Shown: positions 3,597 through 10,749, numbered from the stretch's first letter. The stretch: 64,000 nt of DNA from an uncultured Methanosarcinales archaeon (GCA_964618315.1 CAZTWQ010000004.1:15866-79865), one strand, 5' to 3'. Notes: generated by a model not told the origin, from the sequence alone. Translations and numbers: made by a program.

Positions 3597-5459
3597 ATGC
3601 AGGATATAACAACGCATTTTTTAGATATGGTTGAATCTCCAAAAGATATCAAAGTTCTAAATAGTCAGCAGCTTAAGCTTTTAGCAGGCGAAATAAGGCA
3701 TAAAATCATAACAACTACTGCAAATACTGGCGGTCATCTAGCACCTAGCTTAGGTGTAGTTGAATTAAGCATTGCATTGCATTATACATTCAATTGCCCT
3801 GATGATAAGATAGTCTGGGATGTTGGCCACCAAAGCTACCCTCATAAATTATTGACAGGAAGAGCAAAACGATTTAACACATTAAGGCAATATAAGGGCA
3901 TAAGCGGTTTTCCCAAGATAAAAGAAAGCAAATTCGATGCATTCGGAACAGGCCATAGCTCAACAGCAATATCAGCAGCACTAGGCATAGCAAAAGCAAG
4001 AGACTTAAAAAAAAGCAGCCATAAGGTTATAGCAGTTGTTGGAGATGGAGCATTGACTGGTGGAATGGCATTCGAAGGTCTAAACCAAGCAGGCCACTTA
4101 AAATCTAATCTTATCGTAGTTCTAAATGATAACAAGATGTCAATAAGCCCAAACGTAGGAGCCCTATCTTCCTATTTAGGTAAGATGATAACTCATCCTA
4201 AATACAAACAGACAAGAAAAAAGATAGAACTATTCCTAAAGAAATTGAGCAAGAAAGCAGCAGAAAAGGCATCTTCATTAGAAGATTCAATAAGGGCAAT
4301 GTCAGGTCCGGGATTACTATTCAAGGAGATGGGCTTCAAATATTTTGGACCTGTTAATGGACATGACTTAGATTCGTTAATCAGGCTCTTCCATAATATA
4401 AAAGACATAAAAGGCCCGATTTTAGTTCACTTAATCACCAAAAAAGGAAAAGGATATGCTTATGCTGAAGAAGAAGTTGTAAAATTCCATGGCATCAGCA
4501 AGTTTAATATAGACAATGGAAAAAAAATAACATCCCCATCTAATATAACATATACCCATGCATTCTCTAAAGCATTGTTAAAATTAGCAAAAGAAGACCC
4601 CAAGATATTAGCAATAACTGCAGCAATGGCACCAGGAACAGGCCTAGAGAAATTTAAGGAAAATTTCCCAGATCGGTTTTTTGATGTAGGCATTGCAGAA
4701 CAACACGCAGTAACATTTGCAGGGGGCTTAGCATCCAATGGATTTAAGCCAGTAGTTGCAATCTACTCAACATTCTTACAAAGAGCCTATGATCAGATAG
4801 TCCATGACATATGCCTGCAAAACCTCCCTGTTGTTTTTGCTGTAGATAGGGCAGGGCTTGTAGGAGAAGACGGACCGACACACCATGGCATTTTAGACCT
4901 AAGTTTCCTAAGGACAATACCCAATATCACGATAATGGCTCCAAAAGACGAAAATGAACTAGGACATATGCTAAAGACAGCTATAGATATGAACTCCCCA
5001 GTTGCAATACGTTATCCAAGAGGATCTGGCATTGGCATAGAGATACAAAACCATTACAAAAACATAGAAACAACAGCAGAAATACTAAAACAAGGCAAAG
5101 ACGTTTTAATAATTGCAGCAGGCCCTCTTGTTTATGAAGCATTAGCAGCAGCAGACGAACTAGAGAAAAAGAACATATCAGTTTGTGTTTTAAATCCCAG
5201 ATTCATAAAACCTCTCGACGAAAAAACAATTCTAAACCTAGCAAGAAAAACAAAAAAGATAATCACGATAGAAGAAAACACCCTTGAAGGGGGCTTTGGC
5301 TCAGCAGTTCTTGAATTACTTGAAAAAAATAATATAAGATCAAACATTAAAAGGATGGGCATTCCTGATAGTTTTATAGAACATGGAGCTACAAGCATCC
5401 TGAAAGAACAAGTAGGCCTGACAAAAAAACATATTATCCAGGCAATTAAAGGTATGTAA
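3597..5459 (+). CDS. dxs: 1-deoxy-D-xylulose-5-phosphate synthase
   Basis: 620 aa. Motifs GGHLAPSLGVVEL, DVGHQSYPHK and the TPP-binding GDGALTGGMAFEGLN. Confidence 0.95.
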   Translation: MQDITTHFLDMVESPKDIKVLNSQQLKLLAGEIRHKIITTTANTGGHLAPSLGVVELSIALHYTFNCPDDKIVWDVGHQSYPHKLLTGRAKRFNTLRQYKGISGFPKIKESKFDAFGTGHSSTAISAALGIAKARDLKKSSHKVIAVVGDGALTGGMAFEGLNQAGHLKSNLIVVLNDNKMSISPNVGALSSYLGKMITHPKYKQTRKKIELFLKKLSKKAAEKASSLEDSIRAMSGPGLLFKEMGFKYFGPVNGHDLDSLIRLFHNIKDIKGPILVHLITKKGKGYAYAEEEVVKFHGISKFNIDNGKKITSPSNITYTHAFSKALLKLAKEDPKILAITAAMAPGTGLEKFKENFPDRFFDVGIAEQHAVTFAGGLASNGFKPVVAIYSTFLQRAYDQIVHDICLQNLPVVFAVDRAGLVGEDGPTHHGILDLSFLRTIPNITIMAPKDENELGHMLKTAIDMNSPVAIRYPRGSGIGIEIQNHYKNIETTAEILKQGKDVLIIAAGPLVYEALAAADELEKKNISVCVLNPRFIKPLDEKTILNLARKTKKIITIEENTLEGGFGSAVLELLEKNNIRSNIKRMGIPDSFIEHGATSILKEQVGLTKKHIIQAIKGM

Positions 5460-5461
5460 AT

Positions 5462-6601
5462 ATGGATATAGAAAAACAACCATTTTCTGATTCTCATTTG
5501 GGACGCAGAAAAACAAAACAGATTAACATAGGAAATGTTTCAGTAGGGGGAAACTCCCCTATAAGCATCCAAAGCATGTGCAACACATTAACAAAAGATG
5601 CAAAAGCGACAATAGAACAGATACACAGATTAGAACAAGCAGGTTGCGAAATAATCAGAGTTTCCGTACCAGACATAGAATCAGCAAACACCTTAAAAGA
5701 GATAAAAGAAAATATATCAATACCTTTAGTTGCAGACATCCATTTTGATTACAGACTAGCATTAGAATCTGCAAAATACGTAGATAAACTAAGAATCAAT
5801 CCAGGCAATATTGGCGACGAAGAAAAGATAAAATTAGTGATAAAGGCAGCAAAAGACAGAAACCTACCTATAAGAATAGGCGTTAACATGGGTTCTTTAG
5901 AAAAAGACATAGAATCAAAATATGGCCTGACAGCACAAGCACTAGTTGAATCAGCAAAAAAACACATAGAAATCCTAGAAAGCCAGAATTTCTACAACAC
6001 AATCGTATCATTAAAAGCATCAGACGTCCCAAGAACAATTGAAGCATATCGTTTATTCTCAAAATTAAATGATTACCCATTACATATTGGTATATCAGAA
6101 GCAGGTACTGGCTTTACTGGTGGTATTAAATCAGCAGTAGGCATAGGAACCCTATTAGAACAAGGCATAGGCGACACTATCAGAGTTTCATTAAGCGCAG
6201 ATCCAGTAGAAGAAGTAAAAGTTGGAAAAGAGATTTTAAAATCACTAAAACTTAGAAAATTTGGTGTAGAGGTCACATCATGTCCGACATGCGCAAGAGC
6301 TAATCTGGATATTCCAAAAATAGCCTCAGAAATAGAAGAAAAAACTTCAAACATAAAAAAACCAATAAGCATAGCAGTTATGGGGTGTGCTGTCAACGGT
6401 CCAGGTGAAGCAAAAGAAGTTAATCTAGGAATAGTCGGTGGAAAAGAAGATTGTTTATTATATAAAGATGGAAACATCATCGAAAGATTACATTTTCCTA
6501 AAGGAAATGCTAATCTGGAAGAAAGACAAAAGTCTTTCGACAAAATAAAACAAGAACAAATAATAGAAAAGATTCTAGGGGAGATAAAAAAATGTACATA
6601 G
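5462..6601 (+). CDS. ispG: 4-hydroxy-3-methylbut-2-enyl diphosphate synthase
   Basis: 379 aa. Motifs PISIQSMCNT, TSCPTCAR and GCAVNGPGEA (Fe-S cysteines). Confidence 0.93.
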   Translation: MDIEKQPFSDSHLGRRKTKQINIGNVSVGGNSPISIQSMCNTLTKDAKATIEQIHRLEQAGCEIIRVSVPDIESANTLKEIKENISIPLVADIHFDYRLALESAKYVDKLRINPGNIGDEEKIKLVIKAAKDRNLPIRIGVNMGSLEKDIESKYGLTAQALVESAKKHIEILESQNFYNTIVSLKASDVPRTIEAYRLFSKLNDYPLHIGISEAGTGFTGGIKSAVGIGTLLEQGIGDTIRVSLSADPVEEVKVGKEILKSLKLRKFGVEVTSCPTCARANLDIPKIASEIEEKTSNIKKPISIAVMGCAVNGPGEAKEVNLGIVGGKEDCLLYKDGNIIERLHFPKGNANLEERQKSFDKIKQEQIIEKILGEIKKCT

Positions 6602-9918: not shown

Positions 9919-9930
9919 TTTACAGTTAAG

Positions 9931-10749
9931 ATGGAAGTAATAAGGGCAAAAGAAGCAGGATTCTGTTTTGGGGTAAAACAGGCTATAGATAGGATAAGCA
10001 CACTTCATGGTAAAGGCGATATCTTTGTATTGGGTAAACTTATTCATAATCCTCAGGTAATAGATGAGCTTAAGGGCAGGGGCATAAAGTTCGTAGATAA
10101 TCTAGATGAGGTAGATCATGGGACTTTAGTGATCTCTGCACATGGCATCCCTGATCACATTATCCATGAAGCAAAGAAAAAAGGTCTGGATGTTATAGAC
10201 ACTACATGTTCTCTTGTAAAAAATGTCCATAATATAACAAAAGAACTTGAAAAAAAAGGATACAAGATAATAATATTTGGTGACAAGAACCATACAGAAG
10301 TCAAAGGGATAACAGGTAACCTTGATGATCCAATTGTAATAAGTGGTGTAGACGATCTTGACAATATTAGTCCTGGAAAATATGCTTTAGTTTCCCAAAC
10401 AACTCAGGAAGTGATTAGATTTAATGAAATTGGGGATAAATTAAAGAAAAATATAACAGACTTGATTATAAAAGATACTATCTGTTCCGCAACCAAATTA
10501 AGGCAGGAAAGTGCAAAACAGGTAGCAATGCAGTCTGACCTTATGATTGTTGTAGGCGGTCTCAACAGCGCAAACACCAGGCGCTTGAAAGAGATTTGCA
10601 GCAAGATAGTCCATACTGTACATATAGAAAGCACTTCTGATATAGATCGTAGCTTGTTCTATGGCAAGAATATAATCGGTGTTACAGCAGGAGCCTCAAC
10701 ACCAGAAAATGTGATAAAAGAAGTTATAGGTCTGATAACTAATAGATAA
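9931..10749 (+). CDS. ispH: 4-hydroxy-3-methylbut-2-enyl diphosphate reductase
   Basis: 272 aa. EAGFCFGVKQAI, HNPQV and SAHG, with conserved Cys spacing of the LytB family. Confidence 0.92.
   Translation: MEVIRAKEAGFCFGVKQAIDRISTLHGKGDIFVLGKLIHNPQVIDELKGRGIKFVDNLDEVDHGTLVISAHGIPDHIIHEAKKKGLDVIDTTCSLVKNVHNITKELEKKGYKIIIFGDKNHTEVKGITGNLDDPIVISGVDDLDNISPGKYALVSQTTQEVIRFNEIGDKLKKNITDLIIKDTICSATKLRQESAKQVAMQSDLMIVVGGLNSANTRRLKEICSKIVHTVHIESTSDIDRSLFYGKNIIGVTAGASTPENVIKEVIGLITNR

What the first reader, a model, noticed from the sequence alone, without database searches (positions are those of the whole stretch)
3597..10749. Complete bacterial-type MEP isoprenoid pathway as one cluster on an archaeal contig
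dxs, ispG, dxr, ispDF, ispE and ispH lie consecutively on one strand, several with overlapping stops and starts. Together they cover every step from pyruvate and glyceraldehyde-3-phosphate to IPP/DMAPP. The same contig carries archaeal hallmarks: Dph5, long uS15, Lig1-type ligase, Hel308, NreA, intron-containing tRNAs and an A1-U72 initiator tRNA. Archaea are known to make isoprenoids by mevalonate-type routes, while MEP is bacterial and plastidial. This looks like a whole-pathway transfer, and by eye the cluster is as AT-rich as its neighbours. I recall MEP genes being remarked on in some DPANN metagenome bins but cannot verify that here.
Basis: partly seen in the sequence, partly recalled or inferred. 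Interest (0 to 1): 0.7.

Follow-up and report, generated by a model that had tools for sequence, protein, structure and literature searches.

The report
Bacterial MEP operon in Woesearchaeal archaeon
A tiny marine DPANN archaeon carries all the genes of the bacterial (MEP) route to isoprenoid building blocks as one intact operon; this is real and not an assembly artefact, but it has been described for this archaeal group since 2018, so it is a confirmation and not a discovery.

Summary
ORFs at 3597-10749 (+) are dxs, ispG, dxr, a fused ispDF, ispE and ispH. All score above curated equivalog cut-offs, and their catalytic and Fe-S ligand residues are intact. The contig is archaeal: it has Dph5, a long uS15 57 bp after ispH, a Lig1-type ligase, Hel308, NreA, three tRNAs with introns, and TATA boxes about 30 nt before start codons. 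It is not chimeric. The identical Dxr protein, with both junctions, turns up on at least 24 contigs from independent assemblies made with different assemblers. Codon usage, GC3 and tetranucleotide content match the host. The same gene order and the uS15 junction recur in relatives whose IspDF is only 50-70% identical (Woesearchaeota/Nanoarchaeota). The acquisition is therefore old and has been inherited vertically. The donor is unresolved: IspDF sits nearest CPR and Chloroflexota, while the nearest named Dxr relatives are Micrarchaeia, Fibrobacterota, Bacillota and Nitrospirota. All the main points are already published (Hoshino & Gaucher 2018; Castelle & Banfield 2018; Huang 2021; Castelle 2021; Zhang 2024). 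Side observations: a roughly 150-nt structured intergenic repeat sits inside the operon, an Omnitrophota bacterium carries a cluster nested within the archaeal clade, and one relative has an IspH-polyprenyl synthase fusion.

The parts
3560..3569 (+). TATA-like box TTTATAAATA, 28-37 nt before the dxs ATG, followed by a GGGGGT Shine-Dalgarno-like motif at -10..-5. This is a candidate archaeal-type promoter for the operon.
   Evidence: Sequence read. TATA-like boxes peak at -29..-33 before about 15 other genes of the window. Function is inferred, not shown.
3597..5459 (+). dxs, 1-deoxy-D-xylulose-5-phosphate synthase (620 aa)
   Evidence: TIGR00204, 853 bits. Three Pfam domains. GDG...NDN thiamine-diphosphate motif, EQH, DGPTH and RYPRG are conserved against PDB 7BZX.
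5462..6601 (+). ispG (gcpE), HMBPP synthase, short two-domain form (379 aa)
   Evidence: NF001540, 478 bits. CxxC...C...E cluster ligands align with Aquifex IspG 3NOY.
6592..7755 (+). dxr, DXP reductoisomerase (387 aa)
   Evidence: NF009114, 532 bits. GxxGxxG, DSEH, the HPxWxMG loop and NKGxE are conserved against PDB 6MH4. The identical protein is found on at least 24 independent contigs.
7747..7898 (+). Structured palindromic repeat element, copy A, filling the dxr-ispDF gap. It is an insertion relative to relatives, in which dxr and ispDF abut. It may split the operon into two transcription units.
   Evidence: Fold -59.4 kcal/mol, z = -10. Second copy at 19446-19596. Family found in 13 metagenome contigs, with 25 of 48 pairs showing compensatory changes. 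No Rfam match.
7923..9119 (+). ispDF, bifunctional MEP cytidylyltransferase / MEcPP synthase (398 aa)
   Evidence: IspD at residues 4-226 and YgbB at 229-381. GxGxRM, K and the FKITTP motif are conserved. The DSH...H zinc ligands and TSGE are invariant in alignment A1. PDB IspDF 1W55 and 8XHU are matched end to end.
9106..9918 (+). ispE, CDP-ME kinase (270 aa)
   Evidence: TIGR00154, 212 bits. AKINL lysine, the GLAGGSADAA phosphate loop and GADIPF are conserved against PDB 8QCC.
9931..10749 (+). ispH (lytB), HMBPP reductase (272 aa)
   Evidence: TIGR00216, 268 bits. The three cluster cysteines plus the HNP, AHG, HxE, QTT, SxN and STP motifs align with Aquifex 3DNF and E. coli IspH.
10806..11261 (-). 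uS15 (archaeal/eukaryotic long form), the conserved downstream neighbour that anchors the cluster in an archaeal chromosome
   Evidence: Ribosomal_S13_N plus Ribosomal_S15 domains. uS15 lies downstream of the MEP cluster in 14 related loci, and in L008/L022 it is followed by RpoN, uS9, uL13, L18e, RpoD, uS11, uS4 and uS13.
11494..12102 (-). NapH/MauN-like membrane 4Fe-4S ferredoxin-type protein. It is a possible, unproven electron carrier for IspG/IspH.
   Evidence: Fer4_5 and Fer4 domains. TIGR02163, 66 bits, below its cut-off. Proximity only, so this is an inference.

Best explanation
The window comes from the chromosome of a marine Woesearchaeales-type (DPANN, Nanoarchaeota sensu GTDB) archaeon. 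It carries a domesticated, complete, bacterial-type methylerythritol phosphate pathway as one operon. Dxs condenses pyruvate and glyceraldehyde-3-phosphate to DXP. Dxr reduces and rearranges DXP to MEP. The fused IspDF makes CDP-ME with its IspD half. IspE phosphorylates CDP-ME. The IspF half of IspDF cyclises the product to MEcPP. The [4Fe-4S] enzymes IspG and IspH then reduce MEcPP to HMBPP and on to IPP plus DMAPP, presumably using reduced ferredoxin; a four-subunit pyruvate:ferredoxin oxidoreductase lies about 10 kb to the left. The genes were acquired from bacteria by an ancestor of a large Woesearchaeal clade. They have since been inherited vertically, taken on the host's composition, and come under an archaeal TATA-type promoter. 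In relatives the cluster continues into a polyprenyl diphosphate synthase (in one case fused to IspH), a geranylgeranyl-reductase-like flavoprotein or a cis-prenyltransferase. The product therefore most likely feeds prenyl-chain synthesis, replacing the mevalonate route. What is shown: gene identity, intact active sites, archaeal host, genuine junctions, host-like composition, and conserved synteny. What is inferred: enzymatic activity, the electron donor, promoter use, the downstream fate of IPP, and absence of the mevalonate pathway. The last rests on the literature and on only 84 kb of this genome.
For: Identity of the six genes is shown. Catalytic and ligand residues are intact. Archaeal markers are, and tRNA introns. 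TATA boxes sit about 30 nt before start codons across the window and at -38 before dxs. The identical Dxr, with both flanking junctions, is on at least 24 contigs (43 collection blocks) from JGI, ENA (MEGAHIT and SPAdes) and Logan assemblies. Composition matches the host: GC3 0.27 against 0.26, RSCU correlation 0.71 against 0.78 +/- 0.10, tetranucleotide correlation 0.94 within the tile range of 0.93-0.99. The 120 best IspDF homologues are 52-73% identical, and those that carry names are all Woesearchaeota/Nanoarchaeota except one. Five related loci have all six genes in the same order and 14 have uS15 downstream. Neighbours in relatives are polyprenyl synthase (10 loci), GGR-like protein (4 loci), an IspH::polyprenyl synthase fusion and a UPPS-family gene in L037. 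POR and UbiB flank the cluster both in this contig and in L037. The published record agrees.
Against: No polyprenyl synthase, GGGPS, DGGGPS/UbiA, G1P dehydrogenase or GGR was found in the window or within 10 kb on either side, so the use of the IPP in this organism is not visible here. Huang et al. 2021 report that these archaea lack GGGPS and DGGGPS, which leaves the physiological role open. No expression or activity data exist. A 150-nt structured insertion separates dxr from ispDF and could affect co-transcription. Assignment to Woesearchaeales rests on similarity to named MAGs, not on a marker-gene tree.
Confidence: 0.9

Rival explanations
1. The evolutionary route differs. The six genes were not transferred as one block. 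They were acquired piecemeal from different bacteria and assembled into an operon inside the archaeal lineage.
For: Nearest bacterial relatives differ by gene. For IspDF they are Peregrinibacteria/Peribacteria/Patescibacteria and Chloroflexota. For Dxr the best named representatives are Micrarchaeia, Fibrobacterota, an unnamed bacterium, Ca. Aphodosoma, Bulleidia and Nitrospirota at 47-56% identity, with no gap in the ranking, while the Chloroflexota cluster Dxr is only 46-49% identical. Huang et al. 2021 report ispDF nearest Nealsonbacteria and dxr/ispG nearest Firmicutes. Hoshino & Gaucher 2018 infer FCB-group donors. MEP genes are scattered in most bacteria (general knowledge).
Against: Bacterial contigs with clustered MEP genes and a fused ispDF do exist: Chloroflexota L036 has dxr-ispH-ispDF-ispE-ispG, L040 has dxs-dxr-ispH..ispDF-ispE, and Patescibacteria L055 has dxr-ispDF-ispE. 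A block donor is therefore plausible. Similarity rankings and neighbour-joining trees on saturated, fast-evolving sequences cannot resolve donors.
Confidence: 0.35
2. Assembly or binning artefact: a bacterial MEP fragment was joined to an archaeal contig.
For: Only the prior expectation that archaea use mevalonate routes. The ispH-uS15 gap is short (57 bp).
Against: Both junctions recur on at least 24 contigs from independent samples and four assembly pipelines. The uS15 junction is conserved in 14 divergent relatives. Composition is indistinguishable from the host. The one apparent ispG disruption, in L004, is a scaffold gap of 10 N plus junk sequence.
Confidence: 0.01
3. The contig belongs to an ultra-small bacterium (CPR or Omnitrophota) that carries some archaeal-like genes, so the MEP cluster would be native.
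For: Many bacterial-type genes lie in the window: bacterial AspRS with GAD domain, queuine Tgt, Dus, PgsA, a PlsC-like acyltransferase and FtsZ. One Omnitrophota chromosome carries a very similar dxs-ispG-ispDF-ispE cluster.
Against: Diphthine synthase, long uS15, Lig1-type ligase, Hel308, NreA, archaeal-type UMP kinase and a Cdc45/GAN-type RecJ in the flanks, three intron-bearing tRNAs, and TATA boxes at -30 with leaderless genes. In relatives uS15 is followed by an archaeal ribosomal/RNA polymerase gene block containing RpoN and L18e.
Confidence: 0.01
4. The cluster is a decaying or repurposed relic that no longer makes IPP/DMAPP.
For: No downstream prenyl-utilising genes lie within 84 kb. 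The literature reports no GGGPS/DGGGPS in these archaea. A structured element is inserted between dxr and ispDF.
Against: All six ORFs are full length with all checked catalytic residues intact. The proteins are identical across many samples. The cluster is conserved across a clade spanning 50-70% identity, which implies long purifying selection. No pseudogenised population variant was found.
Confidence: 0.04
5. The MEP pathway is ancestral in these archaea (vertical from an early archaeal or pre-LUCA stage) rather than transferred.
For: The cluster occurs in several DPANN labels (Woesearchaeota, Micrarchaeota, 'Diapherotrites').
Against: Distribution is confined to sub-clades (Huang 2021 subgroups F and J; Castelle 2021's single clade of 52 genomes). 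The archaeal sequences sit among bacterial ones: CPR and Chloroflexota are sister to them and Bacillota is outgroup. The pathway is absent from all other archaea.
Confidence: 0.02

Closest known systems
MEP clusters of Woesearchaeota (subgroups F and J of Huang et al. 2021, PMC8421398; the monophyletic clade of 52 genomes of Castelle et al. 2021, PMC8204110; ODZ Woesearchaeota/Nanoarchaeota MAGs of Zhang et al. 2024, PMC10936187)
   Same: It has the same six genes, the same ispD/ispF fusion and the same co-location. The IspDF protein is 52-73% identical to proteins named Woesearchaeota/Nanoarchaeota. Gene order and the uS15 junction are shared. Bacterial-type queuosine Tgt and lipid genes lie on the same contig, as those papers describe.
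   Different: Here ispH abuts uS15 directly. The polyprenyl synthase or GGR-like gene found at that spot in relatives is missing. A structured repeat element is inserted between dxr and ispDF. No UbiA or G3P dehydrogenase gene lies nearby.
Canonical bacterial MEP pathway (E. coli, Bacillus subtilis)
   Same: All seven activities are present and the checked active-site residues are identical. Identity to bacterial enzymes of known structure is roughly 40-55% by eye from the alignments (not computed).
   Different: In model bacteria the genes are dispersed and ispD and ispF are usually separate. Here they form one operon with an archaeal-type promoter in an archaeal chromosome.
Bifunctional IspDF of Campylobacter jejuni (PDB 1W55) and the IspDF of PDB 8XHU
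   Same: The fusion order is the same (IspD N-terminal, IspF C-terminal) and the match runs end to end.
   Different: The scores are low (132-133 bits). The nearest fused relatives are in CPR, Chloroflexota and Bacillota rather than Campylobacterota, so the fusion may have a separate history.
Clustered MEP genes in Chloroflexota MAGs (L036, L040) and Patescibacteria (L055)
   Same: ispDF is fused, and several MEP genes are adjacent on one strand. They are the closest bacterial branches in the IspDF tree.
   Different: Gene order differs (dxr-ispH-ispDF-ispE-ispG) and identities are only 26-49%. They are not demonstrably the donors.

Membership tests
Complete MEP/DOXP pathway | Genes for all seven activities are present (Dxs, Dxr, IspD, IspE, IspF, IspG, IspH) | tested here: met
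   Each scores above the curated cut-off of at least one NCBIfam equivalog model. Pfam domain architecture is complete.
Complete MEP/DOXP pathway | Catalytic, metal and Fe-S ligand residues are intact | tested here: met
   Alignments to solved structures: IspH, IspG (33), Dxr (34), IspD/IspF (35, 24), Dxs (36), IspE (37). Residue roles are from my knowledge of the E. coli and Aquifex enzymes.
Complete MEP/DOXP pathway | A low-potential electron donor (ferredoxin or flavodoxin system) is available for IspG and IspH | tested here: inconclusive
   A NapH-like 4Fe-4S protein lies at 11494-12102, and a four-subunit POR with a ferredoxin-like delta subunit lies about 10 kb to the left. No pairing has been demonstrated.
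Complete MEP/DOXP pathway | Enzymatic production of IPP/DMAPP in vivo | not testable with these tools
   This requires complementation or labelling experiments.
MEP-bearing Woesearchaeales clade | Fused ispD-ispF gene | tested here: met
   The fusion is reported for subgroup J by Huang et al. 2021.
MEP-bearing Woesearchaeales clade | MEP genes co-located, in the order shared with clade members | tested here: met
   Five loci (L010, L011, L014, L017, L023) have the order dxs-ispG-dxr-ispDF-ispE-ispH. Many more are cut off by contig ends.
MEP-bearing Woesearchaeales clade | MEP proteins nest phylogenetically within the clade | tested here: met
   In a neighbour-joining tree of concatenated IspG+IspDF+IspE, the window groups with Woesearchaeota MP5 (99%) and lies inside a crown clade supported at 99.6%. 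This is neighbour-joining only, not maximum likelihood.
MEP-bearing Woesearchaeales clade | Organismal placement by rRNA or concatenated marker proteins | not tested
   The window has no rRNA. uS15 is 54-65% identical to that of the named relatives, but no species tree was built.
Archaeal chromosome | Archaea-specific information-processing genes | tested here: met
   Dph5, long uS15, Lig1-type ligase, Hel308, NreA and the PIN-KH ATPase. Archaeal PyrH and a Cdc45/GAN-like RecJ lie in the flanks.
Archaeal chromosome | tRNA introns near position 37/38, and TATA-box promoters | tested here: met
   Three tRNAs carry introns of 25, 30 and 42 nt. TATA-like boxes peak at -29..-33 from start codons.
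Archaeal isoprenoid ether-lipid producer | GGPP synthase, GGGPS, DGGGPS (UbiA), G1P dehydrogenase and CarS are present | tested here: not met
   None of these is in the window or within 10 kb on either side. Only about 84 kb of the genome was visible, so absence from the genome is not shown. Huang et al. 2021 report GGGPS and DGGGPS absent.

The most novel reading that the evidence does not exclude
This archaeon may have replaced the mevalonate route entirely. It may not use its MEP-derived IPP for classical archaeal diether lipids, since no GGGPS or DGGGPS is known in the clade. Instead it would make polyprenyl carriers or other prenyl products, while building or remodelling a bacterial-type or mixed membrane. 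That membrane would use the PlsC-like acyltransferase, the PgsA-type phosphatidyltransferase and the uncharacterised radical SAM enzyme that sit together at 26.7-29.4 kb, plus the FabI found beside the MEP cluster in relatives. It would then be a natural archaeal cell on the bacterial side of the lipid divide. A further twist is that its MEP cluster appears to have been passed back to at least one Omnitrophota bacterium.
Probability: 0.1. Interest if true: 0.8.

Novelty: already known. Interest (0 to 1): 0.25.

Why it matters
Isoprenoid precursor synthesis is one of the textbook biochemical differences between Archaea (mevalonate) and Bacteria (MEP), and it is tied to the 'lipid divide'. A whole archaeal clade that runs on a bacterial MEP operon shows that even core lipid-precursor metabolism can be swapped between domains. 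It also raises the question of what membranes these ultra-small, probably host-dependent cells have. That question is still open experimentally. The genomic observation itself, however, has been published several times since 2018. This window adds only a clean, well-supported, population-level example: identical genes in many independent assemblies, intact active sites, a host-type promoter, and a conserved chromosomal position next to uS15.

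Tried and rejected
1. Chimera test. The one contig (L004) with a 'split' ispG turned out to contain a 10-N scaffold gap plus junk sequence, not a frameshift.

2. Mevalonate-pathway hint. An AA_kinase-family gene left of the window could have been isopentenyl phosphate kinase. NCBIfam identifies it as archaeal UMP kinase (180 bits against 34 bits for IPK).

3. Walking the contig. 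Look-ups are limited to proteins encoded in the window, so only +/-10 kb beyond it could be seen. No prenyl or lipid genes were found there.

4. Donor identification.
- The IspDF homologue list is saturated by archaeal sequences.
- The genome scan gave CPR and Chloroflexota as the nearest bacteria.
- The Dxr representative search shows a continuum from 56 to 45% identity with mixed phyla.
- No single donor can be named, and I did not attempt maximum-likelihood trees because no ML software is available.

5. The radical SAM protein at 26667-28124 beside PlsC and PgsA was tested as a possible tetraether synthase (GDGT-MAS/Tes) relative. It has no sequence match in the PDB and no NCBIfam hit, so that idea is not supported.

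6. The 310-aa ORF upstream of dxs (2425-3357) is a secreted Cys- and Thr/Ser-rich protein with no family match, not a prenyltransferase.

7. An Rfam search of the dxr-ispDF spacer gave only chance-level hits.

Full report
**Observation**

Each exceeds the curated cut-off of at least one NCBIfam equivalog model, and each has the full Pfam architecture.

| Coordinates | Gene | Model | Bits | Cut-off |
|---|---|---|---|---|
| 3597-5459 | dxs | TIGR00204 | 853 | 466 |
| 5462-6601 | ispG (short two-domain form) | NF001540 | 478 | 345 |
| 6592-7755 | dxr | NF009114 | 532 | 461 |
| 7923-9119 | ispD::ispF fusion | TIGR00453 / TIGR00151 | 221 / 134 | 181 / 116 |
| 9106-9918 | ispE | TIGR00154 | 212 | 139 |
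| 9931-10749 | ispH | TIGR00216 | 268 | 188 |

The genes are packed like an operon, with gaps of 2 nt, -10 nt (overlap), 167 nt, -14 nt (overlap) and 12 nt.

I aligned each protein to solved structures, and the residues I know to be essential are present:
- IspH: the three cluster cysteines and the H/E/T/S/N substrate residues.
- IspG: the CxxC...C...E ligands.
- Dxr: the DxE...E metal site and the HPxWxMG loop.
- IspD: the GxGxRM and lysine motifs.
- IspF: the DxH...H zinc site.
- Dxs: the thiamine diphosphate motif GDG...NDN, plus EQH and DGPTH.
- IspE: the catalytic lysine, the glycine-rich loop and GADxP.

**Is the host archaeal?**

Yes. The evidence inside the window is this:
- Diphthine synthase (TIGR00522, 268 bits).
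- uS15 with the archaeal/eukaryotic N-terminal domain, only 57 bp after the ispH stop.
- A three-domain ATP-dependent DNA ligase, Hel308, NreA, a PIN-KH ATPase and translin.
- Introns of 25, 30 and 42 nt next to the anticodon in tRNA-Ile(GAT), Asn(GTT) and Gly(TCC).
- TATA-like boxes that pile up 29-33 nt before the start codons of about 15 genes, the pattern of leaderless archaeal transcripts.

The flanks beyond the window add an archaeal-type UMP kinase and a Cdc45/GAN-like RecJ.

The A1-U72 tRNA at 12178-12252 is tRNA-Gln(UUG), not an initiator. The Hel308 ORF lacks its N-terminal helicase half.

The contig also carries many bacterial-type genes: AspRS with a GAD domain, queuine Tgt next to a YhhQ-type transporter, Dus, PgsA and a PlsC-like acyltransferase. 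This mixture is typical of what has been described for DPANN archaea.

**Is the join real?**

Yes. The identical Dxr protein occurs in 43 blocks of the assembly collection. The 24 contigs that were read come from JGI, ENA (MEGAHIT and SPAdes) and Logan assemblies of different samples. They keep both junctions: the secreted 308/310-aa ORF next to dxs, and ispH next to uS15. The longest of these contigs is 132.9 kb.

The only apparent disruption of ispG, in L004, is a scaffold gap of ten Ns followed by junk sequence. I therefore found no sign of pseudogenisation in the population.

The cluster cannot be told apart from its host by composition:

| Measure | MEP cluster | Rest of window |
|---|---|---|
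| GC3 | 0.27 | 0.26 |
| RSCU correlation | 0.71 | 0.78 +/- 0.10 (other genes) |
| Tetranucleotide correlation | 0.94 | 0.93-0.99 (7-kb tiles) |

A TATA box (TTTATAAATA) lies 28-37 nt before the dxs ATG, followed by a GGGGGT ribosome-binding-like motif.

**Age and inheritance**

The 120 best IspDF homologues are 52-73% identical. Every one that carries an organism name is Woesearchaeota, Nanoarchaeota or Nanoarchaeia, with one exception discussed below.

A scan of GTDB species representatives returned about 45 archaeal loci. Five of them have all six genes in the same order as the window, and many others are cut off by contig ends. In 14 loci uS15 lies just downstream. In a 437-kb Woesearchaeota contig, uS15 is followed by RpoN, uS9, uL13, L18e, RpoD, uS11, uS4 and uS13. 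The cluster has therefore occupied this chromosomal position since before these lineages diverged to about 50% protein identity.

The left flank of the window's contig carries SecDF, EamA, PyrH, UbiB and POR. The same genes flank the MEP cluster of a basal relative, L037.

**What the pathway feeds**

In relatives the cluster is followed by several prenyl-related genes:
- A polyprenyl diphosphate synthase, in 10 loci.
- A geranylgeranyl-reductase-like flavoprotein, in 4 loci.
- In L037, an IspH::polyprenyl synthase fusion protein of 633 aa, plus a UPPS-family cis-prenyltransferase.

FabI and pyruvate dehydrogenase genes also occur nearby in some loci. The fusion is a Rosetta-stone argument that MEP output goes straight into prenyl-chain elongation.

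In the window itself none of these genes is present, and none lies within 10 kb on either side. The same is true of GGGPS, UbiA/DGGGPS, G1P dehydrogenase and all mevalonate-pathway genes. This covers about 84 kb of the genome, so absence from the genome as a whole is not shown.

**Donor**

The donor is unresolved.
- In a neighbour-joining tree of IspDF, the archaeal clade is sister to Peregrinibacteria/Peribacteria/Patescibacteria and then to Chloroflexota, with Bacillota as outgroup.
- Some of these bacteria have partly clustered MEP genes with a fused ispDF, so a block transfer is possible.
- For Dxr, a search of 1.84 billion representatives gives a smooth ranking from 56 to 45% identity. 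Its named top members are Micrarchaeia, Fibrobacterota, an unnamed bacterium, Ca. Aphodosoma, Bulleidia and Nitrospirota.
- The literature reports different sister groups for different genes or an FCB-group origin.

I rate piecemeal assembly at about one third. A single block transfer remains the simpler reading, but it is not proven.

**Comparison with what is known**

Every substantive element of the finding is already published:
- Hoshino & Gaucher 2018 noted MEP enzymes in a few DPANN archaea and attributed them to HGT.
- Castelle & Banfield 2018 mapped MEP and mevalonate pathways in DPANN, and Castelle et al. 2021 described a monophyletic clade of 52 Woesearchaeota genomes with co-located MEP genes.
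- Huang et al. 2021 reported four things: only MEP occurs in Woesearchaeota; it is confined to subgroups F and J; ispD/F is fused; and GGGPS and DGGGPS are missing. They also gave per-gene trees.
- Zhang et al. 2024 found the pathway in oxygen-deficient-zone Woesearchaeota and Nanoarchaeota MAGs.

The window is a clean further example, so I rate it 'already known' with low interest. The experimental question of which lipids these cells make remains open and important.

**Side observations**

1. Structured repeat element.
- The 167-nt dxr-ispDF spacer is filled by a highly structured element of about 150 nt (fold -59.4 kcal/mol, z = -10).
- A second copy lies at 19446-19596, directly upstream of the truncated Hel308.
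- A pattern scan found it on 13 metagenome contigs that are otherwise unrelated to the window.
- A covariance model found further copies, including one in Nanoarchaeia L012 and a weak one between ispE and ispH of the closest relative, L013.
- All copies are intergenic and occur in either orientation.
- 25 of 48 base pairs show compensatory changes, while the central 14-bp hairpin is invariant.
- It has no Rfam match.
- It looks like a MITE/REP-like mobile element or an undescribed small RNA of this archaeal group.

2. Omnitrophota cluster. The complete 1.14-Mb chromosome CP070655.1, labelled Omnitrophota, has genuinely bacterial flanks (LptF/G, XseAB). It carries dxs (frameshifted)-ispG-ispDF-ispE at 65/62/56/43% identity to the window. 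In a concatenated tree it nests inside the archaeal crown: archaea were monophyletic without it in 0 of 500 bootstraps, and it is sister to L017 in 97%. This suggests a return transfer from archaea to a bacterium.

3. Lipid-related genes. A PlsC-like acyltransferase, a PgsA-type transferase and an unclassified radical SAM protein sit together at 26.7-29.4 kb.

Noticed in passing
window 7747-7898 (+) and 19446-19596 (+); also L012:10466-10615, L013:1797-1912, L094 (2 copies), L099 (2 copies), L093, L095-L105: A structured repeat element of about 150 nt: a long outer stem, an invariant hairpin GGAAATTTCCATAC-NNA-GTGTGGAAATTTCC, and a variable second hairpin. It is always intergenic and occurs in either orientation. 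25 of 48 pairs show compensatory changes and it has no Rfam match. One copy sits inside the MEP operon, and a weak one lies between ispE and ispH of the nearest relative. It is a candidate MITE/REP-like element or a new small RNA of Nanoarchaeota/Woesearchaeales.
   Followed up: partly
L007/L018 = CP070655.1:1-5115 (Candidatus Omnitrophota bacterium, 1.14-Mb chromosome): A bacterium with true bacterial flanks (LptF/G, XseA/B, YmdB) carries dxs(frameshifted)-ispG-ispDF-ispE. In a concatenated tree these genes nest inside the Woesearchaeal clade (0 of 500 bootstraps for archaeal monophyly without it; 97% sister to L017). GC is homogeneous across the junction. This suggests an archaea-to-bacterium return transfer, although the cluster lies at the very start of the record.
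   Followed up: partly
L037:10416-12317 (+): A 633-aa fusion of IspH (LYTB) with a polyprenyl diphosphate synthase, in a basal relative. Nearby lie a UPPS-family cis-prenyltransferase, UbiB, PyrH, EamA and SecDF, the same flank genes as on the window's contig.
   Followed up: partly
window 17796-19349 (-): The Hel308 ORF matches only positions 224-718 of the Hel308 models, so the N-terminal DEAD/helicase half is absent. Only 293 nt lie upstream, and they are occupied by copy B of the repeat element. The gene is either truncated or split.
   Followed up: no
window 26667-29353: A group of lipid-related genes: an unclassified 485-aa radical SAM protein (no NCBIfam hit and no PDB sequence hit), a PlsC-like acyltransferase (28212-28841) and a bacterial PgsA-type CDP-alcohol phosphatidyltransferase (28844-29353; TIGR00560, 153 bits against a cut-off of 109). 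A DedA/VTT-domain protein lies at 29944-30651. This bears on the question of what membrane the cell makes.
   Followed up: partly
window 33988-36570: Queuosine salvage genes of bacterial type: a Vut_1/YhhQ-family transporter (33988-34695) and a queuine tRNA-ribosyltransferase Tgt (35365-36570; TIGR00430, 523 bits against 136 bits for the archaeosine type). This matches the report of queuosine genes in DPANN.
   Followed up: no
window 12178-12252 (-): The tRNA with an A1-U72 first pair is tRNA-Gln(UUG), not an initiator tRNA. No tRNA-Met was found in the window.
   Followed up: yes
window 2425-3357 (-), and 43438-44535, 61219-63237: The ORF directly upstream of dxs encodes a secreted protein with a signal peptide, a Cys-rich N-terminal half and a Thr/Ser-rich middle, with no family match. 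Together with two other ORFs it has unusually high GC2 and low GC3 (0.16-0.19) compared with the rest of the window.
   Followed up: no
window 19643-24134 (-): Three consecutive large genes encode PKD / bacterial Ig-like / cadherin-like repeat surface proteins with internal DNA repeats. They are probably adhesins of an episymbiotic cell.
   Followed up: no
window 49756-50493 (-): A free-standing LAGLIDADG-type homing endonuclease-like ORF lies next to tRNA-Ser(GCT).
   Followed up: no
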